This document shows positions 35,968 through 46,679 of a stretch of 64,000 nt of DNA, one piece after another (position 1 is the stretch's first letter; each line of letters starts with the position of its first letter). Origin of the DNA: Candidatus Multivoradales bacterium (GTDB taxonomy: Bacteria > Acidobacteriota > Thermoanaerobaculia > Multivoradales > Multivoraceae); assembly GCA_965223325.1 (NCBI GenBank), contig CBDCWI010000002.1:1248001-1312000 (forward strand). Direction: 5' to 3'. The translations under genes were made by a program, and so were the position numbers. A model generated the notes under the pieces. The model had not been told where the DNA came from, did not search any database, and saw nothing but the letters and a program-made list of their open reading frames with translations.

Positions 35968-37251
35968 CTAGTACCGGAGAACCGAGAACAGCATCGCCTT
36001 TTGAACGTCAGTCGAGAATCCATCGGCGCTGTAGTCGGCGATCTTGAGACCGACGACCTGGCCGCCGGGCGCCTTCCAGGTCACGAGAGCATCGACTTCG
36101 GTGCCGTAGTCGCCCGAGGTGTTCTCGGCCGAAAAGTCGTGGTAGGCGGCCTGTACATTCCACACACCCTTGCCCCAGCCAAGCTTCAGGTAGAGGTCTT
36201 CGAGACCGTTGGCAGGAGTTGCGAGGAACTTGTCGGCGAAGCCGTTGAACTTGTGCAGTGTGGCAAGCGGGGTGATGAACGCCGTCGTCCCGTCGCCTTC
36301 GAGAACTTCGGTCCCGAGGCGAGCGCTCCAGGCACCCTGTTTGAGCCCGCCCTCGACCCGCAGGTAGTCGTGCGAGAGATCGGCGGCGTTGTCGCCATAG
36401 TCGTCCTGGCGGGCGAACTGTAGATCGTAGAGGCCCGCAAGACCAGAGGAACCGAGCGCGCTCGAGCCCGTGAAGCTCACCGCGACGGTCGCCCGTGAGC
36501 GCCCAGAAAGAGCCGCGGCGTCGTAGTCCAGCCACTGCCCCGAAATCCCCAACACTCCCCCACCGAACGCACGTCGCACGTCGGCTAGATGTCCCGTCAG
36601 GTCCTGCCGAGCGCCGGTGATCGTATGCACCCGGTCGAGGAAGACGTAGGAGAGCTTCCAGGCCTCCTTGCCTTCTCCGATGGCGGTATCGATCGACACG
36701 GCATCGAAACTCTGGTGGTTCTGACGCCAGGCAACCGCGCCAACGAAACGCTGGTCGCCGAGGTTCTTCTCGAACCGCCCGGCCTTGACCGCCACCTGGC
36801 CGCCGAAGTCGTAGGCCACCCAGGCCTGGTTGATCTCGGTGAGATCGGGGTCGGCGACCACGGGACGATTGGTCACACCGTTGTGAAGGGAGCGCGCACC
36901 AACATTGTTGTAGAGCTCCTCGCGCGGGCCACTGACGTCTTCGACCTCCAGCCCGAAGGTAAAGCCGCTCAACGGGGCACTCTGGAACACGAAACCGGAA
37001 CGCAGGGTGAGCGCCTCGCCATCGCGGCCTTCGAAACGCGCGGCGTCGTCATCGACAAACTCGAAGCGCGGTCTGAAGGAGACACCCCACTTGCCCTTCT
37101 TGAAAGTCTCCCCGAGGGTCGAAGCCACTTCATCCTCACTGTCCGATGCAGCCTGGGCAGCCGGAGGGGCGACCAGCGCGAGCGAGAAGAGGAGGGCAAG
37201 AGAGGCCAGGGCCGACGATCGGACAGTCCAACGAATGGTTCTATAAAGCAT
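35968..37251 (-). CDS. Outer-membrane beta-barrel, alginate-export (AlgE-like) family porin
   Basis: Signal peptide; TEINQAW, QRFVGAVAWRQN.QSFDA, TPLATLHKFNG.AD.F motifs; terminal aromatic residue; AGGAG before the ATG. Confidence 0.82.
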   Translation of the reverse strand: MLYRTIRWTVRSSALASLALLFSLALVAPPAAQAASDSEDEVASTLGETFKKGKWGVSFRPRFEFVDDDAARFEGRDGEALTLRSGFVFQSAPLSGFTFGLEVEDVSGPREELYNNVGARSLHNGVTNRPVVADPDLTEINQAWVAYDFGGQVAVKAGRFEKNLGDQRFVGAVAWRQNHQSFDAVSIDTAIGEGKEAWKLSYVFLDRVHTITGARQDLTGHLADVRRAFGGGVLGISGQWLDYDAAALSGRSRATVAVSFTGSSALGSSGLAGLYDLQFARQDDYGDNAADLSHDYLRVEGGLKQGAWSARLGTEVLEGDGTTAFITPLATLHKFNGFADKFLATPANGLEDLYLKLGWGKGVWNVQAAYHDFSAENTSGDYGTEVDALVTWKAPGGQVVGLKIADYSADGFSTDVQKAMLFSVLRY

Positions 37252-37326
37252 TGAAAAACTCCTGAGGGTGTGCACCCTACGTCCGAGAGGTAAGAAAAGG
37301 GAAAGGCGAAAAGGCGAGAAGAGGAA

Positions 37327-37914
37327 CTAGCCGCCGCTGGCCGTATGACCTAGCGGATCACTGACACTCGCCACCGCGACGTGGCACTGCCGGCAATTCA
37401 CGCGCTCGGGATGGCTGGTACGCAACTCGGGGCGCGCCGCATCGCCGTCATGACAGGCCAGGCAGTTCTCGCGCATGAAGACCCGATGCGGCAGTCGCGG
37501 CGGGGCGATCTCACTCGCTCGATCGCCGTGCACCCCGCCGGGCCCGGTGGCCGAGACTTCGAGGGCCTTGCCCACGAAGGTGGAGGCCACGAAGACGTCA
37601 TCGGTTGCCACCTCGACGTGACACTGGCGGCAGCGGGCAGCCGCCATTCCCAGCGTGCCGCCATGCGGCAGAGCTGGCGAGAGACCGACGTTTGGAACCT
37701 CGATCGCCCGGTCGCCATGACAGGAAACACATTCCGCCGAGAAACCGAGGTGCGGGATGACCGGAGGCGCACCGTGAAAGGCCCGGCGCTCGGCACGCTC
37801 GGCGTACGAAGCAGGATCTTCTCCAGGGCCCGGGCCCGGCGAGCAGCAGAGCGCGCCGAGGGACGCCACGAGAATGACTGCCAGTGTTCGAACCGTGAAT
37901 ACGGGGGGGCCCAT
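37327..37914 (-). CDS. napB: NapB-like c-type cytochrome with internal duplication (four CxxCH)
   Basis: Two repeats: PPVIPH..CVSCH..CRQCH and PPRLPH..CLACH..CRQCH; directly downstream of napA. Confidence 0.8.
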   Translation of the reverse strand: MGPPVFTVRTLAVILVASLGALCCSPGPGPGEDPASYAERAERRAFHGAPPVIPHLGFSAECVSCHGDRAIEVPNVGLSPALPHGGTLGMAAARCRQCHVEVATDDVFVASTFVGKALEVSATGPGGVHGDRASEIAPPRLPHRVFMRENCLACHDGDAARPELRTSHPERVNCRQCHVAVASVSDPLGHTASGG

Positions 37915-37925
37915 CTCGCGACCTC

Positions 37926-40340
37926 TCAGACCCGTTCGACGCGCACGGCGCACTTCTTGAAGTCAGGCTCTTTCGAGATGTTGTCCAGCGCGTCGAGTGT
38001 GAGCTCGTTGATCAACTTCGACTCGTCGAAGAAGGGCACGAAGACCGATCCTTCGGGCGGTGCCCCCCGCCCGTCGACGGCGGCTTGCAGTTCGATGGTG
38101 CCGCGGCGACTCGTTACCCGCACTCGCGACCCGTCCTGCACGCCGAGGCGCGCCGCATCGGCTGGATTGAGCTCGACGTAGGCCTCGGGTACCGCCTGGT
38201 GCAGCTGCCGTACGCGGCGGGTCATCGAACCGCTGTGCCAGTGTTCGAGGACCCGGCCGGTCGAGAGCCACAGAGGGTACTCGTCGTCTGGGATCTCGGC
38301 TGGCGGGTGGTAGGGGCGCAGCCAGAAGGCCGCCTTTTCGCCATACCCCTTGGCCTTGTAAAAGTGCACACCCTCGTTCTTCTTGACGTATGGGTCGATC
38401 CCGGCGGCGTAGCGATAGGGGGTTTCGCGCCCGTCGACAACCGGCCAGCGCAACCCACGGGTGGCCTTCAGATCCTCATAGGAGGCGAGATCTTTGCCGA
38501 CCCCGAGGGTGAAGCTCCGATACTCCTCGTACATCGCCTCGTGCCAGTCCCCCTCCCAGGGGAACAGGTACCCCATGCCCATGCGCCTGGCCACTTCGAC
38601 GATCTGCTCGGCGTCCTCGACCGCCTCGCCGGGAGGCTCGATCATCTTGTTCCAGTGCTGGGTGCGCCGCTCGGTGTTCCCGAAGACACCCTCGCGCTCG
38701 ATCCACGCGGCGGCAGGGAGCACGAGGTCGGCCATCTCGGTGGTCGGTGTCGGATAGATCTCGGAGACCACCACGAACCGACCGTCACCCGGCTGGCGCT
38801 CGAAACGATGCAGGTTGGGCAGCGACAACCACGGGTTGGTGGTCTGAATCCACATTGCTTTGACGTCACCGCGCCGAAGCGCACGAAACATGTCGACTGC
38901 GTGGTACCCGGGCTTGGGATTGATCGTCCCGGGTTCGAGGCCCCAGATCTCCTCAGTCTTCTTGCGGTGGTCGGGATTCATCACCACCATGTCGGCCGGC
39001 AGTCGATTCGACAGCGTGCCCACTTCGCGTGCCGTTCCGCACGCCGAAGGTTGCCCGGTGAGACTGAAGGGGTTGGCACCGGGGCGGCCGATCTTACCGG
39101 TGATCAGATGGAGGTCGTTGATCAGGTTGTTCATCCAGGTGCCGCGAGTGTGCTGGTTGACCCCCATGCACCACAGGCTGACCGTGCCGCGGCTGCGGGC
39201 CCCGTAGATCTCTGCCAGCGAGTGGATGGTCGCAGCAGGCACTCCGGTGATCTCACTCGTGCGCTCGGGGCTGTAGTCCGCCAGGAAGGTACGCAGCTCG
39301 GCGAGTGAACTGTCACGGCCCTTGTCTTTCCAGGTGTAGCGCTCGGCCTGGTCGCCGTAGCAGCCATAGCCGATCTCGTCCTGGTCTTCGATGCCGCGCT
39401 TCCAGACCACGTTCTCGTCGATGAACGCCTTGTCGATGGCGTCGTTCTCGAGCAGGAGATGCATGATGCCGTTGGCCAGCGCCAGATCGGTGCCGGGCTT
39501 GAACTGCACATAGAGATCGGCATACTGCGAGGTCGCCGTCCGCCGTGTCGCGAGGTCGATGATGCGAACGTCGGGGCGCTGGCGCCGGGCCTCGAGAATG
39601 CGGCTGAACAAGACCGGATGCGCCTCGGCCATGTTGTTGCCCCACAGCACGAAATCGTCGCCAACCTCGAAGTCTTCGTAGCAGCCCATCGGCTCGTCGC
39701 TCTGGAACTGGGTCACGAAACCCATCACCGCGCTCGCCATGCACAGACGCGCATTCGGGTCGATGTTGTTCGAACGCATTCCGCCTTTGACCCACTTGAG
39801 CGCCGCATACCCATCGTGCACGGTCCACTGTCCTGAGCCATAGACGGCCACCGACTCGGGACCACTCTCGGCCAAGGCCTCCTGGAACTTCTCGGCGATC
39901 AGATCGTAGGCCTCGTCCCAGGAAATGCGTTCGAGCTTCCCGTTGGCATTGCGGCGCTGCGGGTACAAGAGGCGGTCTTCGCCGTAGAGAAGACCCGGCA
40001 GGTGGTAGCCCTTGACACACAAGAGACCCCTGTTGACAGGGTTCTTGGTGTCGCCGCGCACGGCTACGGCGCGCCCATCCTGGACCCCGACCTCGACCCC
40101 ACAGCCGGCTCCACAGAAGCGACACGGGGCCTTCTGCCAGTTCACACCCTCACGATCGAGAGCCGCGACGTCGGTGTCGTCGGCGGCTGCCTCGATCTCT
40201 CGCGCTCGTTCCTGGTCGCTGCAAGAGAAGGCCGCTGCGGCCGCACCACCGGTACCAAGAACAGTCAGGAATCGACGTCGGTCGACACCACGTTTCGGAT
40301 CGTTCGGATTCTTCATCGGGTTCGTTTTCCGGAAGGCCAT
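37926..40340 (-). CDS. napA: Periplasmic nitrate reductase catalytic subunit
   Basis: Tat motif DRRRFL; 4Fe-4S CRFCGAGC..LCVKG; NARLCMASA; SLTGQPSACGTAREVG; terminal PDFKKCAVRV. Confidence 0.95.
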   Translation of the reverse strand: MAFRKTNPMKNPNDPKRGVDRRRFLTVLGTGGAAAAAFSCSDQERAREIEAAADDTDVAALDREGVNWQKAPCRFCGAGCGVEVGVQDGRAVAVRGDTKNPVNRGLLCVKGYHLPGLLYGEDRLLYPQRRNANGKLERISWDEAYDLIAEKFQEALAESGPESVAVYGSGQWTVHDGYAALKWVKGGMRSNNIDPNARLCMASAVMGFVTQFQSDEPMGCYEDFEVGDDFVLWGNNMAEAHPVLFSRILEARRQRPDVRIIDLATRRTATSQYADLYVQFKPGTDLALANGIMHLLLENDAIDKAFIDENVVWKRGIEDQDEIGYGCYGDQAERYTWKDKGRDSSLAELRTFLADYSPERTSEITGVPAATIHSLAEIYGARSRGTVSLWCMGVNQHTRGTWMNNLINDLHLITGKIGRPGANPFSLTGQPSACGTAREVGTLSNRLPADMVVMNPDHRKKTEEIWGLEPGTINPKPGYHAVDMFRALRRGDVKAMWIQTTNPWLSLPNLHRFERQPGDGRFVVVSEIYPTPTTEMADLVLPAAAWIEREGVFGNTERRTQHWNKMIEPPGEAVEDAEQIVEVARRMGMGYLFPWEGDWHEAMYEEYRSFTLGVGKDLASYEDLKATRGLRWPVVDGRETPYRYAAGIDPYVKKNEGVHFYKAKGYGEKAAFWLRPYHPPAEIPDDEYPLWLSTGRVLEHWHSGSMTRRVRQLHQAVPEAYVELNPADAARLGVQDGSRVRVTSRRGTIELQAAVDGRGAPPEGSVFVPFFDESKLINELTLDALDNISKEPDFKKCAVRVERV

Positions 40341-40391
40341 TGTTTAGGGCGCCGCTGCGGGCACTTTTAGGGGTGCGAGCTGAGCGAGAGC

Positions 40392-42044
40392 TCAGGGCCC
40401 GCTCGGAGCTGAGCCCTGTCCGTAGCGTTCCTGCATCTGACGACGGATCTGTTCCATCTGGTCTGTCGCACCCTGTTCGAACCAGGCGTGCTCGGGACGT
40501 GCAAGGAGGTCATTGATGACCTTCTCGGCCCGGGCCGCACCAGCGGCGTTGCCGTGCGAACGCCCATGGGCGACGAGCTCACGCGCCTGCGGGATGAGCT
40601 CCATGTAGAAGCGCTCGGCAACTTCATACATGCCGTGCCAATGGGTGTAGTCGGGAGCCATCATCGCAGCGCCATGGCGAGCGCGCCGGCCCTCGTGATG
40701 CCAGAGGTAGAACCAGGTCCACTCGATCTCTTCGTCGAATTGCGTGTCGGAGATCAGGCCGTTGCTGCGCAGCGCAGTCACAATGTCGCGACCGGGCTTG
40801 GCGAACTTCTCGTTGTAGAGAATCACCAGGTTGTCGTACTGCTTGTAGAAGCCCTCGATGTAGGAAGGCGTGTGGCAGTGCGAGCACACTTCCTTCATCC
40901 GATTGCGCTTCGAGGTCGCCGTATCGACGGTCAGCTTCTGGCGTTCGATCGGGTCTGTCTCCTTGACCAGGTGGCCGTTGATGTCGGTATCCATCACCAG
41001 CGACACCGGCGGGCGGTTGGTCCACGAAATGCGAGTCCCAGGATCGTGGGTCACCTCGCCGCCGTTGCGACTGTGGCCCGACATGTGGCAGGTGGCGCAG
41101 GTCGGCGCTTCAGAGTAGTCCTCGCCGAGGACCCAGTTCTCACCGTCGAGATCCATCTCATCCTTGAGATCGCGATAGGCGATCCCGTGTTTGGACTCTT
41201 CGAAGATCTCCTTCTGCGGATGATCTGGGCCGAGGTGACACTTGCCGCAGTTCTCAGGCTGCCGCGCACGCCGCGGCGAAAAGTCATGCCGGCTGTGACA
41301 TGCCGAGCAGGAACCGCGCGACCCGTCGAGGTTCAGGCGACCGATGCCCGTGTTGGGCCAGGTGCCTTGATGGAAAACTGGCCGGCCGTTGTCGGCCCGT
41401 TTGATACGCGCCACCGCGGCGGTGTTGGTTGGCTTTCCGTCCTCGTCCGGCTCGAGCTCATCGACCGTAATGCGACTTCCGTCGGCGGCCTCGAGCGCCA
41501 CCTTCGAACCGTGACACTGCTGGCAGCCGCTGAACGCCGAGGCACCGCCCTCGACCAACTCCATCGGGCGACCGGGGGTTGGCGAGTGAGGGTTGAAACT
41601 CCCGCGCGCACCCTCGACCGTTTCGGCGAGGAAGTTGTCGAGCGAGGCCAGGATGTTGCCGGCCGCCGCATGGTGACTGCTTTCGAACTGGTGCGCCTCT
41701 TCCTGGTGACACTGCCCGCAGTCGCGTGGTGTGACGACGGTCGCGATCAGGCTGCCGTAGTGCGAGTGCGCATCCGCCTCGCCCTCGTTGGCCTGATGGC
41801 AGTCATAGCACCCCACGCCACTGTGGGCGTGCTGGCTGCCTTCCCAGTGCTCGTTGATGCCGGGCGTGGTCTGACCATGGCAATCGACACACGACGCCGA
41901 TGAAGCCGGCACCGCGACTTTGACGGTCGTTACTCCGGCCTCTTCGGCCTTGCGGATGACTTCCATCCACTGCACGAAGACCAGCGACAGCAGGAAGACA
42001 GCCGCCAGGATGATGATGATCTTTCTTTTCTGATTCAGTGTCAT
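40392..42044 (-). CDS. Membrane-anchored octaheme HAO-family cytochrome c
   Basis: Eight motifs: CVDCH, CYDCH, CGQCH, CQQCH, CSACH, CGKCH, CATCH, CSHCH; GPDH after heme 6; C-terminal GAAMMAPDYTHWHG; N-terminal TM helix. Confidence 0.88.
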   Translation of the reverse strand: MTLNQKRKIIIILAAVFLLSLVFVQWMEVIRKAEEAGVTTVKVAVPASSASCVDCHGQTTPGINEHWEGSQHAHSGVGCYDCHQANEGEADAHSHYGSLIATVVTPRDCGQCHQEEAHQFESSHHAAAGNILASLDNFLAETVEGARGSFNPHSPTPGRPMELVEGGASAFSGCQQCHGSKVALEAADGSRITVDELEPDEDGKPTNTAAVARIKRADNGRPVFHQGTWPNTGIGRLNLDGSRGSCSACHSRHDFSPRRARQPENCGKCHLGPDHPQKEIFEESKHGIAYRDLKDEMDLDGENWVLGEDYSEAPTCATCHMSGHSRNGGEVTHDPGTRISWTNRPPVSLVMDTDINGHLVKETDPIERQKLTVDTATSKRNRMKEVCSHCHTPSYIEGFYKQYDNLVILYNEKFAKPGRDIVTALRSNGLISDTQFDEEIEWTWFYLWHHEGRRARHGAAMMAPDYTHWHGMYEVAERFYMELIPQARELVAHGRSHGNAAGAARAEKVINDLLARPEHAWFEQGATDQMEQIRRQMQERYGQGSAPSGP

Positions 42045-42060
42045 CAGGACTCCAAAAGGG

Positions 42061-43152
42061 TCAGTGGGCGACGGCTGCCTCCCAGATCGTCAGGATGGTG
42101 ATTGCGAACACGCCGACAATGCCAATCCAGACAGTCGCTTCTCGAAAACGTGTGTTCTTGCGGATCCAGGCGTCGATGAAGGGCCAGGTGAACATGACGA
42201 ACACGATGAAGCCCATCGACAGAATCGCAGCGGTTCCCGAGAACAGCTTCAACCAACGAAACGTCACATAGAAGAACCACTCGGGCTTGATCACGTCGGG
42301 GGTGACCAAGGGATCGGCCTTGGGGCCGAGGGTAGCCGGGAAAACAGTCGCCAGGAAAGACAAGAGGATCATCAGGGTGAGGCCGGCCATGACCTCGGAG
42401 AGCACGTGATCCGGGAAGAAGTTGAAGGTCTTCTTGGGCCTTTCTTTCTCGTCCTCGAACTCGAACTCGGTCACGCCCTGCAGCCGAATGATCGCAATGT
42501 GCACCACGATCAGCAGAATGAGGGTGATCGGAAGAACGGCGGCGTGGAGGACGTAGAAGCGCGGCAGAGTGTTGTCGTTGTAGACCTCTCCGCCGAGCAT
42601 GAAGTCGCGCATCAGGCCGCCAACGATCGGAACGTTGGCGGCGATATTGGCGCCGACCGTCGCACCCCAGAAGCTGAGCTGCTCGAACACCAGGCTGTAG
42701 CCGGTGAAGCCGAGCATCAACGACGTCAACAAGAGGCACATACCCACCATCCAGTTGAGCTCGCGCGGCTTTCTGAAGGCGCCAGTGAAATAGACCCGCA
42801 TCTGATGGAGCACGACCGCCGCAATCATCAGCGTCGCACCCCAGCGATGCAGGCTACGCAAGAACCACCCATACGACGCCTCGTTGGTGATGTAGAGCAC
42901 CGACTCGTAGGCGCTCTCTGGCGACGGCTTGTAGTAGAGCGCCAGCAGAATGCCGGTGACAATCTGCACCACGAACAGATAGGCCGGGGTGCCGCCGAGT
43001 GCGAACCACCACCGCTTGAGGTGGTTTGGGACCGGTTCATTGGTGAGCTCGCGCAGCTGCTCCATCGAGAAGGGCAGACGTTCCTGAATCCACTGGGCGG
43101 CGCGAGCTCCAGTCCTCCTGGTGAGCGAACGTTCGTGAGCCGGAGTCGTCAT
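42061..43152 (-). CDS. Cytochrome b of a Rieske/cytochrome b complex (b and subunit IV unsplit)
   Basis: RSLHRWGA..LHQMRV, KPRELNW, RFYVLH..VHI, IKPEWFF motifs. Confidence 0.92.
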   Translation of the reverse strand: MTTPAHERSLTRRTGARAAQWIQERLPFSMEQLRELTNEPVPNHLKRWWFALGGTPAYLFVVQIVTGILLALYYKPSPESAYESVLYITNEASYGWFLRSLHRWGATLMIAAVVLHQMRVYFTGAFRKPRELNWMVGMCLLLTSLMLGFTGYSLVFEQLSFWGATVGANIAANVPIVGGLMRDFMLGGEVYNDNTLPRFYVLHAAVLPITLILLIVVHIAIIRLQGVTEFEFEDEKERPKKTFNFFPDHVLSEVMAGLTLMILLSFLATVFPATLGPKADPLVTPDVIKPEWFFYVTFRWLKLFSGTAAILSMGFIVFVMFTWPFIDAWIRKNTRFREATVWIGIVGVFAITILTIWEAAVAH

Positions 43153-43162
43153 CTAACAGCCC

Positions 43163-43816
43163 CTAGGCGCTCTCGTCGTTGGCGGTCTGGTCGGCCACAG
43201 AGTGGGACGCCCGCTGCAGGTCCGGAAACAGGCACGGGTCATGACCAGGACCGATGGGGCAGGTCCCACGAAACACCTCGGGCGCTTCGATGGTGCCTTC
43301 GCCCGCCGCGACCTCGGCAGCTTCGAGCTCGATGAACAACAGGCCGTTCTCGACCTTGAGTGGGTAGGTCGGCAGGCTCTGTCCGGCTTCGGCCGGAGGA
43401 CCGCTAGTCGCCACCCCGGCAGGGTCGAACACGCCGTTGTGACACGGGCAAAAGAAGCGGTCGTTGGCAGCTTCCCAGTGCACCTGACAGCCGAGATGCG
43501 GGCAGGTAGACGACAGCGCAACCAACGAGTCGTCGCCCTCGCCCTGGCGGGCAATGTTGATCGTCGAGCCCAAAGGTGTACGGAAAACAATTGCCTCACC
43601 GGCAGCGATCCTCTCGGCGCCCGTGACGTACATCCAACGCGAGGTTTCGCCCGCCGCCGGATAGGCAAAGCGAGCCATGAAGACGGCCAGGGTGCCGTAG
43701 GCCGCCGCCAGTGCGCCGAACATCGAAACGCCAACTGCCCGGTGCAGAAAACCGCGGCGATCCTGCTCATCGGCCGGGTTGCTGGCCGGAAGGTGGTCAG
43801 AATGAGTGGTGTTCAC
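43163..43816 (-). CDS. Rieske 2Fe-2S subunit of a Rieske/cytochrome b complex
   Basis: Tat motif DRRGFL plus TM helix; CPHLGC and CPCHNGVF boxes; GPP. Confidence 0.92.
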   Translation of the reverse strand: MNTTHSDHLPASNPADEQDRRGFLHRAVGVSMFGALAAAYGTLAVFMARFAYPAAGETSRWMYVTGAERIAAGEAIVFRTPLGSTINIARQGEGDDSLVALSSTCPHLGCQVHWEAANDRFFCPCHNGVFDPAGVATSGPPAEAGQSLPTYPLKVENGLLFIELEAAEVAAGEGTIEAPEVFRGTCPIGPGHDPCLFPDLQRASHSVADQTANDESA

Positions 43817-43883
43817 GCCGGGTGATCTCCCTGGACAGAAACGAAGAGGCGAGAGCGCAAAGGGGTCACAACAACGGGAATCA

Positions 43884-45533
43884 TCAGAAGGGCCTGAAGC
43901 CCGGCGAACCGAAGCGCTCCAGCGAGAAGAGGTGGTACATCGGATAGGCGTAGGCGATGATGATCAAAAGCACGGCCACTGCGGTCCACAAACCGAGGCG
44001 GTCCCACAGAAGCTCGCCACCGGTGACCTGCTCGGAGGCATGGAGCGGCCTGGCGAATTCGATCGAGGGCGGGTCGATATGTTTGCCCCAGATCATCGTC
44101 GCAGCGACCACGGCGATAAAGCACAGTGAGCTCACAAACAGCACCATGCCGCCGAGAGCCGAGAACATCGTCAGGTTCTCCCAGGCCTTCGAGGCCTCCG
44201 AGCCGGCGAAGTTCGAACTGTAGACCCGCCTCGGTTCACCGAGCAGCCCGGTGACGTGACTCGTCCAGGCGAACATCACCATGCCGAAGAACCACAGGTA
44301 GGGCTGAATCGTCGCGACCTCCCGCAGCATCAATGCGCGACCACTCAAACGCGGCAGGAGCCAGTACGAGGCACCCATGAACGAAAGCGCCACAGCAGTA
44401 CCAACGGTCAGATGAAAGTGCCCATGGATCCAGGCGGTGTTGTGCACCATCGTGTTCATGGCAAACGCCGCGTTGATCGCGCCGCCCCAACCACCGACGG
44501 CAAAGGTGATCATCGCCAGGGCGATGCACGCGAAGAACGGCTCGCGCCAGGGCAGCTTCCAGATCCAGTTGAACAAACCTGTAGCGCCGCGCAGGCGACC
44601 AGCGATCTCGAGCGAAGCGATGACTGTAAAGGCGGTGATCAGGCTCGGAAACAGGATCGCGTAGGTGGTCGCGGTATGGACCAGCTTCCACGACGCCGGA
44701 ATCCCCGGGTCGGTGAACTGATGGTGGAAGCCGACCGGAGTCGAGAACAGGATGAACATCACGAACACCACTCGGGCCAAGCGGTCACTGAACAAACGCC
44801 CCCCGGCGACCTCGGGCAGCACCGTGTACCAGAGCATGTAGGTCGGCAACAACCAGAAGTAGGTCAGCGGGTGACCGAACCACCAGAACCAGGTGCGCGC
44901 GACAATCGGATCGATGCGCTCGATCCACCCCAGAGACCAAGGTACCAGTTGACCAAGCACCTCGGCCGCAAGACCCGAGGTCGCCAGCAGCCAGATGATC
45001 ACCGAGGTGAGCATCGCGTGCATGGCAAGTGGCAGAGGCTCGACCTTGCCGCCGTTGCGGTTCTCGCGACGCCAGGCAAGCCAGGTGCGGATCATCACCA
45101 CGCACCAGATCCACGACCCAACGATCAGAAGGGTGGCGCCGATGTAGAACAGCGGGTGGGCCTGGAGCGGCGGATAGAACGTGTAGAGAACCGTCGCCTC
45201 GCCACTCAGAATCGTAAGAGCAGTAAGCAGTGAGCCAATCGTTGCCACCCAGAACGCACTCCACCCCATCGCCTCGCTCTCGAGCCGGCCGAGCGTCCGC
45301 CGAGCGATGACATAGCCGAGGCCCATGATGAAGAACGTCGTAAAAACCAGGGCCATCAAGACACCGTGCGCGGTCACCGAGACGTAGTAGACCTCGGGCG
45401 AACGAAACGCCACATCGAGGTCGGCACGCGAAAGCGACTGCATAACCGCCATCAAGGCGCCAATGCCAAAGGCTCCAATCGAGACGCCAAAGTTGGCGAG
45501 CGGCAGCTGATTGCGCCGCGTGGCTTCGTTCAT
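43884..45533 (-). CDS. cbaA: B-family (ba3-type) heme-copper oxidase subunit I
   Basis: HGVLMALVFTT, WWFGHPLTYFWLLP, PVGFHHQF, PSLITAFT, GHFHLTVG, PRR motifs. Confidence 0.92.
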   Translation of the reverse strand: MNEATRRNQLPLANFGVSIGAFGIGALMAVMQSLSRADLDVAFRSPEVYYVSVTAHGVLMALVFTTFFIMGLGYVIARRTLGRLESEAMGWSAFWVATIGSLLTALTILSGEATVLYTFYPPLQAHPLFYIGATLLIVGSWIWCVVMIRTWLAWRRENRNGGKVEPLPLAMHAMLTSVIIWLLATSGLAAEVLGQLVPWSLGWIERIDPIVARTWFWWFGHPLTYFWLLPTYMLWYTVLPEVAGGRLFSDRLARVVFVMFILFSTPVGFHHQFTDPGIPASWKLVHTATTYAILFPSLITAFTVIASLEIAGRLRGATGLFNWIWKLPWREPFFACIALAMITFAVGGWGGAINAAFAMNTMVHNTAWIHGHFHLTVGTAVALSFMGASYWLLPRLSGRALMLREVATIQPYLWFFGMVMFAWTSHVTGLLGEPRRVYSSNFAGSEASKAWENLTMFSALGGMVLFVSSLCFIAVVAATMIWGKHIDPPSIEFARPLHASEQVTGGELLWDRLGLWTAVAVLLIIIAYAYPMYHLFSLERFGSPGFRPF

Positions 45534-46021
45534 GAACCAGCCCCCGCCGCTCCAGCCCCCAGCACAATCAGCTTGCCCTGCATCATGTGGTGAGAGAGGC
45601 CGCAGAACTCGTTACACACAATCAGGTACTCGCCGGGCTTCTCCAGTTCGACACTGAACTCGCTGACGTAGCCGGGCGTCACCGTGACATTGGCGTTGGT
45701 TCCAACAATCTGAAAACCGTGGATCACATCTGGGCTGGTGATGCGAAACCGCACCAGTCCGGGCGATACTCGAATCACCCCTGGCCTGAAGGCGAACATT
45801 TCGGCCACCGCGATGACCAGAGTCGAGCCGTCCGGCTGTTGCTCGACGCGAGGATCGGCGAACTCGGTCTCGGTTCGCACAAGAAGCGGATCAATGGTCT
45901 CGACGTGGCTCGGAGGCTCGACCGCGTGAAGAACAGCGGCAATACACACCGTCGCCAGGAACGACGCGATCATCAGGATCGAGAACCAGATCCACCAACG
46001 CTCATAGAGGTCGACCTTCAT
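45530..46021 (-). CDS. cbaB: B-family oxidase subunit II (CuA)
   Basis: Single TM helix; SPDVIHGF..CNEFCGLSHHMM. Confidence 0.92.
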   Translation of the reverse strand: MKVDLYERWWIWFSILMIASFLATVCIAAVLHAVEPPSHVETIDPLLVRTETEFADPRVEQQPDGSTLVIAVAEMFAFRPGVIRVSPGLVRFRITSPDVIHGFQIVGTNANVTVTPGYVSEFSVELEKPGEYLIVCNEFCGLSHHMMQGKLIVLGAGAAGAGS

Positions 46022-46109
46022 CGCCCGCTCCAGGTGCACCTGGCCGCCAGGCCCCTAGCCACCCTGCCATGCAGAGCAGAAGGTCTATCGGTCATCGCAC
46101 GCGTTTCTC

Positions 46110-46277
46110 TCATTGAAGAGGTGCTCCGCGTTCGAGAAACACAAGGACATAGAGCCCAACCCACCCGAGGATGAAGAGCACTGCATAAACCACCATCACA
46201 GCGAGAGTCCCCTTCGGATGCTCAGGAAGGTCTTCAACACGGACGGTGTGTTCGGGGTGTGACTGCCGATCGTTCAT
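46110..46277 (-). CDS. cbaD: ba3-type oxidase subunit IIa (55 aa)
   Basis: Below the ORF-track cutoff. Manual translation MNDRQSHPEHTVRVEDLPEHPKGTLAVMVVYAVLFILGWVGLYVLVFLERGAPLQ matches the PKG.LAV...W...Y..F..RG pattern. Confidence 0.85.
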   Translation of the reverse strand: MNDRQSHPEHTVRVEDLPEHPKGTLAVMVVYAVLFILGWVGLYVLVFLERGAPLQ

Positions 46278-46353
46278 CTACAGGCCTCTTTGCAACCGGT
46301 CGCCTGATCTGCTACCAGCGTCAGAAGTTAGCGAGGAGCCACGGGCGACGACA

Positions 46354-46369
46354 TACGTGAAAGCACGTA
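46354..46369. promoter_or_regulatory. Palindrome upstream of the respiratory cluster; candidate regulator site
   Basis: TACGTG-AAAG-CACGTA about 77 bp upstream of the cbaD start. Confidence 0.4.
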
Positions 46370-46679
46370 AAGAGATGGTGTGGAACAACAGGGGAAGGAG
46401 GGAAAGTCTGCGGGCGGCGCGAAGACTCTAACTGCTAGCTGACTCCGAACAAGAGATCGCGAGCCCGGGCAACAGCCAAGCCACCGTCCGAGCCCAGCGC
46501 CAAGACTGCATCACCAAAGAACCAATCCCGTCACAAAAGCGAGCTGCCGAAGGCACGAGCATGCCCCCACCCACCTAAGACTTTGCGGGACGTCGTCCGC
46601 CCGGCCTTCCTGCCCCATCCATTCCAACAACCGAGACCAAAACAACCGAAACAACCCGAGCAACCCGAGTCGTCAAGAA

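What the first reader, a model, noticed from the sequence alone, without database searches (positions are those of the whole stretch)
35968..46277. Respiratory super-cluster: ba3 oxidase + Rieske/cyt b + octaheme HAO-like + NapAB + porin
Seen: nine co-oriented genes with gaps under 100 bp, in the order cbaD-cbaB-cbaA-Rieske-cytb-octaheme-napA-napB-porin. No napC, napGH, napD, nrfA or nirS/nirK is in the window. Known: Nap normally receives electrons from NapC or NapGH without itself conserving energy, while Rieske/cyt b complexes conserve energy by a Q-cycle. Inference: one quinol-oxidising complex feeds both a high-affinity O2 reductase and an energy-conserving nitrate -> nitrite -> (NO/ammonium) branch. 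This would be a microoxic/nitrate switching or co-respiration module and a possible NrfA-independent ammonification route.
Basis: partly seen in the sequence, partly recalled or inferred. Interest (0 to 1): 0.87.

Follow-up and report, generated by a model that had tools for sequence, protein, structure and literature searches.

The report
Branched respiratory operon with octaheme hub
Nine neighbouring genes appear to wire this bacterium's only quinol-oxidising Rieske/cytochrome b complex, through an eight-heme enzyme-like subunit, to an oxygen reductase and a nitrate reductase; the core module is already noted in genome papers but has never been tested at the bench.

Summary
Nine co-oriented minus-strand genes (35968-46277) encode ba3 oxidase (cbaDBA), Rieske, cytochrome b, an HAO-family octaheme, NapA, a c-type cytochrome and an outer-membrane barrel, with gaps of 70 nt or less.

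Two corrections. The Rieske gene is 43163-43816. "NapB" is a tetraheme made of two NapB-like halves.

Rieske and cytochrome b sit upstream of the octaheme in 67 of 69 loci from many phyla. napA follows in 39 of 62. The ba3 genes recur beside the unit in at least five gene orders.

This genome (98.2% complete) has no other cytochrome b. Searches found no NapH, NapD, NrfA, NirS, NirK, NirB or siroheme reductase. The octaheme keeps the HAO Asp-His pair, and its conserved N-terminal helix is modelled onto cytochrome b (0.80; best control 0.00).

Close precedents are the Caldithrix nap-Rieske/cyt b-εHao locus, the Nitrospira OCC with Rieske/cyt b, anammox R/b-3, and Qcr-dependent Nap in Campylobacter. 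This scan also found the module before on other DNA.

Verdict: a new variant of a known kind. The nitrite product (ammonium or NO) and the electron routes are untested.

The parts
46110..46277 (-). cbaD: ba3 oxidase subunit IIa (55 aa, one TM helix)
   Evidence: Pfam CoxIIa PF08113, 24.8 bits against a cut-off of 20.7. Orthologues lie next to cbaB/cbaA in the related loci.
45530..46039 (-). cbaB: oxidase subunit II with a CuA cupredoxin domain and no fused cytochrome c
   Evidence: Pfam COX2, 35 bits against a cut-off of 22. The motif CNEFCGLSHHM is read from the translation, which contains no CxxCH.
43884..45533 (-). cbaA: B-family (ba3-type) heme-copper oxidase subunit I
   Evidence: COX1, 313.5 bits. 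The best PDB matches are Thermus thermophilus ba3 oxidase (1ehk/1xme, about 424 bits); after these and one other entry (7deg, 338.5 bits), the remaining oxidase subunit I entries score about 58 bits or less.
43163..43816 (-). Rieske 2Fe-2S protein with a twin-arginine N-terminus (DRRGFL) and the CPHLGC...CPCH cluster boxes
   Evidence: Pfam Rieske, 43.7 bits against a cut-off of 20.3. NCBIfam Rieske and arsenite-oxidase small-subunit models hit below their cut-offs. The motifs are read from the translation.
42061..43152 (-). Cytochrome b (363 aa, fused b6-like N-terminal part plus a subunit-IV-like C-terminal part); the only cytochrome b of the genome
   Evidence: PF00033 179 bits and PF00032 37.6 bits. 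It is the single PF00033 match in G000. His102/116 and His203/218 and P290-E291-W292 are invariant in 13 sequences.
40392..42044 (-). Membrane-anchored octaheme cytochrome c of the HAO family, the presumed c-type subunit and catalytic module of the complex
   Evidence: Eight CxxCH motifs. PF13447, 81.6 bits. PDB matches are 4qo5 (1e-51), 6h5l and HAO 1fgj. D274-H275 aligns with HAO D267-H268, and R344 with HAO Y334. Mean column identity is 70% across 18 sequences chosen from loci labelled with different phyla. The N-terminal helix is modelled onto cytochrome b: 0.80 against a best control of 0.00.
37926..40340 (-). NapA: periplasmic nitrate reductase catalytic subunit with a TAT signal (RRRFLTVLG)
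   Evidence: NF010055, 944.2 bits against a cut-off of 904. TIGR01706, 914.7 bits, just under its cut-off of 930.55. The best PDB matches are E. coli, C. necator and R. sphaeroides NapA (806-757 bits), ahead of Desulfovibrio NapA at 626 bits.
37327..37953 (-). Tetraheme cytochrome c made of two NapB-like dihaem halves, the presumed electron donor of NapA
   Evidence: Four CxxCH motifs. The halves are 39% identical, E 2e-7. Pfam NapB scores 19.6 and 18.7 bits for the halves and 25.0 bits against a cut-off of 25.1 for the whole protein. All 39 orthologous frames in other loci have exactly four CxxCH.
35968..37275 (-). Outer-membrane beta-barrel of the AlgE/Alginate_exp family, a presumed anion (nitrate/nitrite) channel
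   Evidence: Pfam Alginate_exp, 38.3 bits against a cut-off of 25.2. Homologues at 35% identity or more flank the module, upstream or downstream, in 11 of 47 loci with 8 kb on both sides. The channel function is inferred.
46278..46679 (-). Upstream non-coding region holding the likely promoter, with a perfect inverted repeat TACGTG-N4-CACGTA at 46354-46369
   Evidence: Sequence read. A terminator-like hairpin follows the preceding gene at 46650-46674. No convincing sigma-54 site was found: 24 matches against 23.5 expected in the whole window, none in this stretch. The role is inferred.

Best explanation
The locus encodes a branched, quinol-driven respiratory module.

The genome's only Rieske/cytochrome b complex oxidises (mena)quinol. 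By analogy with all such complexes, it conserves energy by a Q-cycle. In place of cytochrome c1 it carries an HAO-family octaheme, held on cytochrome b by a conserved N-terminal transmembrane helix.

Electrons arriving from the Rieske cluster run along the heme chain and leave by three routes:
1. To the CuA centre of the co-encoded ba3 oxidase, reducing O2.
2. Through a tandem-NapB tetraheme to NapA, reducing nitrate to nitrite.
3. To the octaheme's own open heme, which reduces the nitrite. Ammonium is the more likely product and NO is possible.

The outer-membrane barrel lets the anions in.

Shown here: gene identities, synteny, the genome-wide inventory and conserved residues. Supported by a model only: docking of the helix on cytochrome b. 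Inferred: every electron-transfer step, the Q-cycle, the substrate and product of the octaheme, and the porin's cargo.
For: Unit and wiring
- Rieske and cytb lie directly upstream of the octaheme in 67 of 69 loci that have at least 1.8 kb of upstream DNA. The loci carry many different phylum labels.
- The octaheme's N-terminal helix is conserved: L21, V24 and E28 are invariant in 18 sequences.
- The helix is modelled against cytochrome b helices with ipSAE 0.80 in three runs, best of 3 controls 0.00. That mark was reached by 116 of 157 solved complexes and 2 of 215 mismatched pairs. The runs agree in at least 88% of contacts and the partner's pLDDT is at least 66. I supplied my own alignments, so these counts hold only roughly.
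- napA follows the octaheme in 39 of 62 loci with at least 3.2 kb downstream, and 38 of those also carry the tetraheme.
- In the 41 genomes of the window's order, 8 of the 10 NapA matches over cut-off lie beside the octaheme. The two genomes with NapA elsewhere lack the octaheme.
- The ba3 orthologue (63% identity or more) occurs in 10 of 41 genomes. All 10 have the octaheme, and 9 carry a copy beside the unit.
- The ba3 genes sit beside the unit in at least five arrangements: upstream; divergent; directly after the octaheme; after the tetraheme; and after the porin.

Inventory of G000
- One cytochrome b.
- No NapH, NapD, NrfA or NirS match; no NirK over cut-off; no NirB; no siroheme NIR_SIR.
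- Two nitrate reductases are present, NapA and NarGH. The octaheme is the only candidate nitrite reductase found.
- Among the 41 relatives, true NrfA (above 400 bits) occurs only in G032, G033 and G035, and NirS only in G033. None of these has the octaheme. NirK occurs only in G011, which holds only octaheme fragments, and G016, which has none.

Catalytic signs
- The HAO distal Asp-His pair is kept (D274-H275).
- An invariant Arg replaces HAO Tyr334.

Literature
- The Caldithrix paper proposes the same wiring (PMC5317091, passages).
- C. jejuni Nap needs Qcr (PMC6195509, abstract).
Against: - There is no experimental or expression evidence for this locus.
- The three-gene unit stands alone in 23 of 62 loci, and ba3 is nearby in only 5 of 47. 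The links to Nap and ba3 are therefore optional add-ons.
- The 80 loci are the best matches to my query, not a random sample, and related genomes are not independent.
- A NapC/NrfH-family tetraheme exists elsewhere, and two ACIII-like modules could also feed periplasmic acceptors.
- As the only bc-type complex in the genome, the octaheme might be just a wire.
- I could not place the cross-linking tyrosine of the oxidative HAOs. Neither the full profile nor a C-terminal profile aligned with HAO in that region.
- The AlphaFold model was too poor to use: mean pLDDT 54, and below 50 over the catalytic region 229-349.
- The tetraheme misses the Pfam NapB cut-off (25.0 against 25.1), and NapA misses one of its two equivalog cut-offs.
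- In the same-genus genome G001 the cytb-octaheme-napA stretch shows several frame changes, so the module can be lost.
Confidence: 0.55

Rival explanations
1. The octaheme is only an electron wire, a multi-heme stand-in for cytochrome c1. The cluster is then an ordinary complex III next to two of its terminal enzymes, and nitrite from Nap is excreted or handled by something unrecognised.
For: The cluster holds the genome's only cytochrome b, so it must serve general respiration. The octaheme's anchor helix is modelled onto cytochrome b as a structural subunit. The three-gene unit often stands alone with no acceptor gene beside it. The ba3 subunit II has no fused cytochrome c and needs a c-type donor.
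Against: The HAO distal Asp-His pair and the whole surrounding segment are invariant in 18 sequences from loci with many phylum labels, which is more than a wire would need. No other nitrite reductase type was found in a genome with two nitrate reductases. Among the relatives, genomes with an intact octaheme and genomes with NrfA, NirS or NirK do not overlap; G011, which has NirK, holds only octaheme fragments. The related Nitrospira gene is reported to be expressed on nitrite but not with ammonia (PMC6606698, passage).
Confidence: 0.2
2. Cryptic denitrification. The octaheme reduces nitrite to NO, as anammox HAOr does. The adjacent ba3 oxidase doubles as the NO reductase, and the NosZ encoded elsewhere finishes the pathway to N2.
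For: HAOr (kustc0458, PDB 6h5l) is the second-best PDB match and forms NO from nitrite in vitro (PMC8042395, abstract and passages). G000 has a full-length NosZ (530 bits, under the model's cut-off of 625; Pfam nos_propeller). It has only three COX1-family genes: two were checked and are A-type subunit I and the third is the cluster's ba3, so no NorB was found. ba3 recurs beside the unit. NO reduction by Thermus ba3 is recalled from the literature and was not checked here.
Against: The best PDB match is IhOCC (4qo5), not HAOr. The Nitrospira and Caldithrix papers favour ammonium as the product. ba3 is near the unit in only 5 of 47 loci, so it cannot be the general NO sink. Nothing here distinguishes the two products.
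Confidence: 0.12
3. Nap is fed by another quinol dehydrogenase, either the NapC/NrfH-like tetraheme at C2:4267459 or an ACIII module. Its adjacency to the Rieske/cyt b genes would then reflect co-regulation or shared inheritance, not direct electron transfer.
For: One PF03264 match over its cut-off exists (41 bits). Two ACIII-like modules are present.
Against: The NrfH-like gene scores 50 bits against a cut-off of 134 for NrfH. It sits with an outer-membrane barrel and a monoheme cytochrome, about 3 Mb from nap. One ACIII lies next to an A-type oxidase and the other next to narGHJ. napA plus the tetraheme follows the octaheme in 38 of 62 loci carrying many phylum labels, and this NapA type was never found apart from the unit in the 41 relatives.
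Confidence: 0.1

Closest known systems
Caldithrix abyssi nap-Rieske/cytochrome b-εHao locus (Cabys_2564-2556; Kublanov et al. 2017, PMC5317091; passages read)
   Same: NapA, a tetraheme cytochrome, Rieske, cytochrome b and an HAO-family octaheme share one cluster. There is no NapB, NapC or NrfA. The authors proposed that the Rieske/cyt b complex donates to the tetraheme and/or the octaheme and could make the pathway proton-motive.
   Different: The Caldithrix cluster also has napG and napH, and its tetraheme is called NapM. It has no ba3 oxidase and no porin. Here no NapH was found in the genome, and the tetraheme is a tandem of NapB-like halves. I could not fetch the Caldithrix proteins, so orthology was not tested.
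Nitrospira moscoviensis/japonica octaheme cytochrome c (OCC, also called 'ONR') with two upstream Rieske/cytochrome b genes (PMC6311188 and PMC6606698; passages read)
   Same: The same three-gene idea: a periplasmic octaheme of the multiheme family linked to the quinone pool by Rieske/cyt b. The genes are co-expressed, and the octaheme is proposed to reduce nitrite to ammonia.
   Different: In Nitrospira the unit sits in a nitrogen-assimilation region and is read as assimilatory, with no Nap and no ba3. Orthology to this protein was not tested here.
Kuenenia stuttgartiensis Rieske/cytochrome b complex R/b-3 (kuste4569-4574) with the HAO-like subunit Kuste4574 (PMC12485887; passages read)
   Same: An HAO-like octaheme is a membrane-bound component of a Rieske/cyt b complex and is proposed to reduce nitrite. 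Its soluble homologue HAOr (6h5l) is the second-best PDB match of this protein.
   Different: The anammox complex lies in the anammoxosome membrane and has further subunits (recalled, not checked). The proposed product there is NO, for hydrazine synthesis. No Nap or oxidase is attached.
Campylobacter jejuni QcrABC-dependent Nap and Tor respiration (Garg, Taylor & Kelly 2018, PMC6195509; abstract read)
   Same: This is experimental proof that a periplasmic Nap lacking NapC can draw electrons through a Rieske/cyt b complex, making nitrate reduction electrogenic. The same complex also serves oxygen respiration.
   Different: There the c subunit is an ordinary cytochrome c, the genes are not in one operon with nap, and nitrite goes to NrfA (recalled).
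IhOCC (Igni_0955) of Ignicoccus hospitalis, PDB 4qo5
   Same: It is the best solved-structure match (E 1e-51 with the family profile), with the same heme-motif order.
   Different: IhOCC has Asp-Val where this family has Asp-His (alignment). It is found in both soluble and membrane fractions (PMC4429474, passage). It is archaeal, and no Rieske/cyt b neighbour is mentioned in the passages I read.
Geobacter extHIJKLMNOPQS cluster (PMC5877670; passages read)
   Same: The same architecture in outline: a porin-like outer-membrane protein, Rieske (ExtO), cytochrome b (ExtP) and multiheme cytochromes in one conserved cluster. ExtP is the top NCBIfam hit of this cytochrome b, at 221.8 bits against a cut-off of 290.
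   Different: The cytochromes differ (5-, 10-, 12- and 4-heme, one a selenoprotein). That cluster is implicated in selenite and tellurite reduction and has no Nap, oxidase or HAO-family member.

Membership tests
B-family (ba3-type) heme-copper oxidase | Subunit I closest to characterised ba3 enzymes rather than to A- or C-family oxidases | tested here: met
   Thermus ba3 (1ehk/1xme) scores about 424 bits. After these and one other entry (7deg, 338.5 bits), the remaining oxidase subunit I entries score about 58 bits or less. The A-type equivalog TIGR02891 scores only 127 bits against a cut-off of 671.
B-family (ba3-type) heme-copper oxidase | CuA subunit II plus the small subunit IIa | tested here: met
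   COX2 scores 35 bits and CoxIIa 24.8 bits, both over their cut-offs. The CuA-type Cys/His/Met motif is read from the translation.
B-family (ba3-type) heme-copper oxidase | Heme b and heme a3 content, and high O2 affinity | not testable with these tools
   These need biochemistry.
Rieske/cytochrome b (bc/b6f-type) complex | Rieske protein with CxHxGC and CxCH boxes | tested here: met
   Pfam Rieske scores 43.7 bits. CPHLGC and CPCH are read from the translation.
Rieske/cytochrome b (bc/b6f-type) complex | Cytochrome b with two His pairs for hemes bL and bH, and a Qo-site PEWY-type motif | tested here: met
   PF00033 and PF00032 are over their cut-offs. H102/H116, H203/H218 and P290-E291-W292 are invariant and F293 nearly invariant in 13 sequences, so the motif reads PEWF.
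Rieske/cytochrome b (bc/b6f-type) complex | Mono- or dihaem cytochrome c1, f or c subunit | tested here: not met
   No such gene is in the cluster. The third gene is an octaheme of the HAO family.
HAO family of octaheme cytochromes c | Eight CxxCH motifs and a match to the family profile | tested here: met
   Eight motifs, all invariant in 18 sequences. PF13447 scores 81.6 bits against a cut-off of 21.9. HAO, HOX, HDH and HAOr chains are all matched in the PDB.
HAO family of octaheme cytochromes c | Distal Asp-His pair of the catalytic heme pocket (HAO D267/H268) | tested here: met
   It aligns with D274-H275, which is invariant. HAO Y334 aligns with the invariant R344.
HAO family of octaheme cytochromes c | Tyrosine cross-link to the catalytic heme, the mark of the oxidative members | tested here: inconclusive
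   Neither the full profile nor a C-terminal profile aligned with HAO in that region. The structure model was too poor to use. Earlier notes of this scan say the tyrosine is lacking; I did not verify that.
HAO family of octaheme cytochromes c | Soluble periplasmic protein | tested here: not met
   It has a conserved N-terminal hydrophobic helix (residues about 8-27), modelled as one long helix 3-35 with pLDDT 82-91. The helix is modelled docked on cytochrome b.
Periplasmic nitrate reductase Nap | NapA equivalog score and a TAT signal | tested here: met
   NF010055 scores 944.2 bits against a cut-off of 904, though TIGR01706 at 914.7 falls below its cut-off of 930.55. RRRFLTVLG is read from the translation. 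The match comes in two pieces that skip model positions 574-628, as in the relatives.
Periplasmic nitrate reductase Nap | Dihaem NapB partner | tested here: not met
   The partner is a tetraheme built from two NapB-like halves. Pfam NapB scores 25.0 bits against a cut-off of 25.1. All 39 orthologous frames have four hemes.
Periplasmic nitrate reductase Nap | A dedicated quinol dehydrogenase (NapC or NapGH) and the chaperone NapD | tested here: not met
   NapH and NapD have no match in the genome. There is one remote NapC/NrfH-family gene in an unrelated context. NapG was not searched separately.
Caldithrix-type nap-Rieske/cyt b-octaheme locus | NapA, a tetraheme, Rieske, cytochrome b and an HAO-family octaheme adjacent on one strand | tested here: met
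   for the locus; PMC5317091 passages for the comparison. Sequence orthology to the Caldithrix proteins was not tested.

The most novel reading that the evidence does not exclude
The nine genes build one physical respiratory supercomplex. A Rieske/cyt b core carries a catalytic octaheme that both reduces nitrite and hands electrons directly to ba3 oxidase and, via a tandem-NapB wire, to NapA. This would give a fully proton-motive nitrate-to-ammonium (or nitrate-to-NO) pathway without NapC or NrfA, running alongside O2 reduction. Because the core cassette occurs in hundreds of species and public records name the protein 'hydroxylamine oxidoreductase' or 'hydroxylamine dehydrogenase', it would be a major nitrite sink that gene surveys could mistake for nitrification potential.
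Probability: 0.2. Interest if true: 0.8.

Novelty: new variant of a known kind. Interest (0 to 1): 0.5.

Why it matters
Periplasmic nitrate reduction is usually taught as non-energy-conserving, and nitrite ammonification is usually scored by nrfA. This cassette would make both steps proton-motive, and nrfA, nirS and nirK marker surveys would miss it.

The octaheme family is very large. Public records label the protein 'hydroxylamine oxidoreductase' or 'hydroxylamine dehydrogenase', so gene-based nitrogen budgets could mistake it for a nitrification marker.

This window adds a case in which the same complex is also hard-linked to a ba3 oxidase in a genome with no other bc complex. That is a natural system for asking how one complex III partitions electrons between O2, nitrate and nitrite at oxic-anoxic interfaces.

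No member has been purified, so a single biochemical study would settle the product and the wiring for many lineages.

Tried and rejected
- Structure. AlphaFold2 on an 18-row alignment gave mean pLDDT 54 and below 50 over residues 229-349. I ran no fold search, because matches to such a model would be meaningless.
- Cross-link tyrosine. The full-length profile and a C-terminal profile (A3) were run against PDB sequences. Neither aligned with HAO beyond the eighth heme motif, so the question stays open.
- Expression. No RNA holder was listed for the locus. I laid no reads.
- Sigma-54 promoter. A scan with TGGCAC-N5-TTGCW gave 24 matches against 23.5 expected, with none upstream of cbaD. The sigma-70 and terminator scan was at shuffle level and placed nothing between the genes that would argue for or against one transcript.
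- Overlapping ORF. The ORF 43153-43770, which overlaps the Rieske gene, had no family hit and was dropped.
- 'TGA inside' flags. The stop codons flagged in relatives' octaheme matches turned out to be the terminal stop codons, not selenocysteine.
- Loci without napA. I looked for another terminal reductase beside the unit and found only unrelated genes in the 18 ORFs scanned from 9 loci.
- Porin. A PDB sequence search gave nothing usable, and NCBIfam had no model for it.
- NapM. Identity with the tetraheme could not be tested, because no NapM model or sequence was at hand.
- Literature. Four full-text searches were run. I found no paper describing the ba3 + Rieske/cyt b + octaheme + Nap + porin operon as such. 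Subscription journals and bioRxiv supplements were not searchable, and supplementary tables of the MAG papers were not opened.

Full report
**1. What is there**

ORF listing and profile searches confirm nine co-oriented minus-strand genes between 35968 and 46277.
- cbaD: CoxIIa, 24.8 bits against a cut-off of 20.7.
- cbaB: a CuA subunit II with no fused cytochrome c.
- cbaA: its best PDB match is Thermus ba3 oxidase at about 424 bits; after that and one other entry (7deg, 338.5 bits) the remaining oxidase subunit I entries score about 58 bits or less.
- A Rieske protein: Pfam 43.7 bits.
- A 363-residue cytochrome b with b6-like and subunit-IV-like parts.
- A 550-residue protein with eight CxxCH motifs: PF13447, 81.6 bits.
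- NapA: NF010055, 944.2 bits against a cut-off of 904. Its best PDB relatives are the NapAB-type enzymes of E. coli, C. necator and R. sphaeroides.
- A 208-residue cytochrome with four CxxCH motifs.
- A 435-residue Alginate_exp-type outer-membrane barrel.

Gaps between the genes are 70 nt or less, and two pairs overlap. The flanking genes are unrelated.

The Rieske gene is the 43163-43816 frame; the overlapping ORF 43153-43770 has no family hit. "NapB" is a tetraheme whose two halves are 39% identical (E 2e-7), and each half resembles NapB only weakly (19.6 and 18.7 bits). All 39 orthologous frames in other genomes also carry four heme motifs.

**2. Is the arrangement conserved?**

Among 41 genomes of the same order, 19 match the octaheme at E 0.001 or better; most of these share 69-78% identity with it. 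Mapping the nine proteins onto 18 fetched neighbourhoods shows that Rieske-cytb-octaheme always travel together, while the other genes attach in different ways:
- cbaDBA-unit-napA-tetraheme-porin, as here (G012);
- unit-napA-tetraheme-cbaDBA (G030);
- unit-cbaDBA (G026, G037);
- cbaDBA divergent from unit-porin (G003);
- unit-napA-tetraheme-porin (G025, G040);
- the unit alone (G019, G022 twice, G024).

The best 80 were kept. Their titles name Thermoanaerobaculia and other Acidobacteriota, Gemmatimonadota, Planctomycetota, Eiseniibacteriota, Binatia, Vicinamibacterales and others, at 65-79% identity.

In those 80 loci:
- Rieske plus cytb lie upstream in 67 of 69 with enough upstream DNA.
- napA follows in 39 of 62 with enough downstream DNA, and 38 of those also have the tetraheme.
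- cbaA lies within 8-10 kb in 5 of 47, four of them with napA.
- A porin homologue lies nearby in 11 of 47.

Where napA is missing, the unit is flanked by unrelated genes. These 80 are the best matches to my query, not a random sample, and kin are not independent.

Within the order, the ba3 orthologue occurs in 10 of 41 genomes. All 10 have the octaheme, and 9 carry a copy beside the unit. Of the 10 NapA matches over cut-off, 8 lie beside the octaheme, and the two exceptions lack the octaheme.

**3. Genome inventory (G000, 98.2% complete)**

The cluster holds the only cytochrome b and the only HAO-family gene.

No match was found for:
- NrfA, NapD, NapH or NirS;
- NirB or siroheme NIR_SIR;
- NirK over its cut-off.

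One NapC/NrfH-family gene lies about 3 Mb away. It scores 50 bits against a cut-off of 134 for NrfH, and it sits beside an outer-membrane barrel and a monoheme cytochrome.

There are three heme-copper oxidases: the ba3, an A-type next to an ACIII, and a second A-type next to heme o synthase. None is a NorB. The genome also has narGHJ followed by a second ACIII-like module and a NosZ.

A genome with two nitrate reductases therefore has no recognisable nitrite reductase other than the octaheme. Among the relatives:
- True NrfA occurs only in G032, G033 and G035.
- NirS occurs only in G033.
- NirK occurs only in G011 and G016.

None of these has an intact octaheme.

**4. The octaheme**

Its best solved relatives are IhOCC (4qo5, E 1e-51 with the family profile), anammox HAOr (6h5l), and then HAO, HOX and HDH.

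The alignment with HAO places D274-H275 on the distal Asp267-His268 pair. It places an invariant Arg344 on HAO Tyr334. The segment around these residues is identical in all 18 sequences, which were chosen from loci with different phylum labels.

The N-terminal hydrophobic helix is also conserved. A two-chain model of cytochrome b with octaheme residues 1-60 scored 0.80 against a best control of 0.00. That mark was reached by 116 of 157 solved complexes and 2 of 215 mismatched pairs. The three runs agree in at least 88% of contacts, and the partner's pLDDT is at least 66. I supplied my own alignments, so the counts hold only roughly. This supports binding but does not show it.

I could not place the cross-linking tyrosine, and the monomer model was too poor to use.

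**5. Most likely mechanism**

The Rieske/cyt b core oxidises quinol with a Q-cycle; this is established for the family and inferred here. The Rieske cluster reduces the anchored octaheme. The heme chain then serves three sinks: the ba3 CuA centre, NapA via the tandem-NapB tetraheme, and the octaheme's own active heme, which reduces nitrite. The barrel admits the anions. All electron-transfer steps are inferred.

The product is open. The Nitrospira and Caldithrix papers favour ammonium. HAOr makes NO. The presence of NosZ and ba3 without Nor keeps a cryptic-denitrification reading alive.

**6. Comparison with the literature**

- The same wiring was proposed for Caldithrix abyssi, whose cluster also has NapGH and lacks an oxidase (PMC5317091, passages).
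- Rieske/cyt b plus OCC is described and co-expressed in Nitrospira (PMC6311188 and PMC6606698, passages).
- An HAO-like subunit belongs to anammox R/b-3 (PMC12485887, passages).
- Nap dependence on a Rieske/cyt b complex is shown experimentally in C. jejuni (PMC6195509, abstract).
- Two MAG surveys of Planctomycetota record 'hao'-type or 'Onr'-type hits. In the passages I read they do not mention the Rieske/cyt b neighbours (PMC10732223; PMC11266412).
- Earlier agents of this scan reported the three-gene module, the Nap-linked form and a ba3-linked form on other genomes. I treat these as leads only.

In four full-text searches I found no paper describing the full ba3 + unit + Nap + porin operon, the tandem-NapB nature of the tetraheme, or any biochemical study of the family.

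**7. Verdict**

Its core idea is already in print, and this scan has seen it repeatedly.

What this window adds:
- the nine-gene form with ba3;
- the finding that this is the genome's sole bc-type complex and its sole candidate nitrite reductase;
- the tandem-NapB tetraheme;
- a modelled anchor-helix interface with cytochrome b.

Novelty: a new variant of a known kind. Interest is moderate, and it would be high if biochemistry confirmed a supercomplex or an unrecognised major nitrite sink.

Noticed in passing
L112 (G000:C2:3726000-3745000), outside the window: narG (1467 bits), narH and narJ are preceded by an MFS transporter and a dihaem cytochrome c. They are followed by a pentaheme, an ActB-like and an NrfD-like gene, which together look like a second ACIII-type module. 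No NarI was recognised: the 267-aa ORF after narJ has no Pfam hit. This may be a Nar wired to an ACIII-type membrane module.
   Followed up: partly
L026 (G001:C2:1350000-1369900), the same-genus genome: The orthologous cluster keeps cbaDBA, Rieske, the tetraheme and the porin each in a single frame. The octaheme and napA break into several frames, and cytb drops to 52% identity (translation). This is either decay of the core genes in the sister species or local assembly error.
   Followed up: partly
window 46354-46369 (minus strand): A perfect inverted repeat, TACGTG-CTTT-CACGTA, lies about 77 nt upstream of the cbaD start codon. It is a candidate regulator binding site. Its conservation was not examined.
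   Followed up: no
L111 (G000:C2:4260000-4275000): The genome's only NapC/NrfH-family tetraheme sits between a 780-aa outer-membrane beta-barrel (Porin_4/OMP_b-brl) and a monoheme cytochrome c. This may be a separate periplasm-to-outer-membrane electron route.
   Followed up: partly
L080, L093, L094, L095 (loci labelled Planctomycetota, Phycisphaerales, Phycisphaerae or planctomycete): In these four loci my cytochrome b matches as two separate pieces upstream of the octaheme, suggesting a split b6/subunit-IV form. The Acidobacteriota and Gemmatimonadota loci show a single fused match. L099 (labelled Alphaproteobacteria) shows only the N-terminal piece.
   Followed up: no
L115 (G000:C1:515000-534900): A full-length NosZ (530 bits, under the 625-bit cut-off of the Sec-type model; nos_propeller domains) lies next to a 453-aa protein with two CxxCH motifs and a NosZ-like cupredoxin C-terminus. 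The genome has no NirS, NirK or NorB.
   Followed up: partly
public protein records: Close relatives of the octaheme are named 'hydroxylamine oxidoreductase' or 'hydroxylamine dehydrogenase' in NCBI and JGI records of Acidobacteria, Thermoanaerobaculia and 'Deltaproteobacteria' MAGs. Gene-based nitrification surveys could be misled by this label.
   Followed up: no
G000:C2:860040-862109: A molybdopterin oxidoreductase frame of 995 aa contains one in-frame TGA. Relatives show the same pattern. It looks like a selenocysteine formate dehydrogenase.
   Followed up: no
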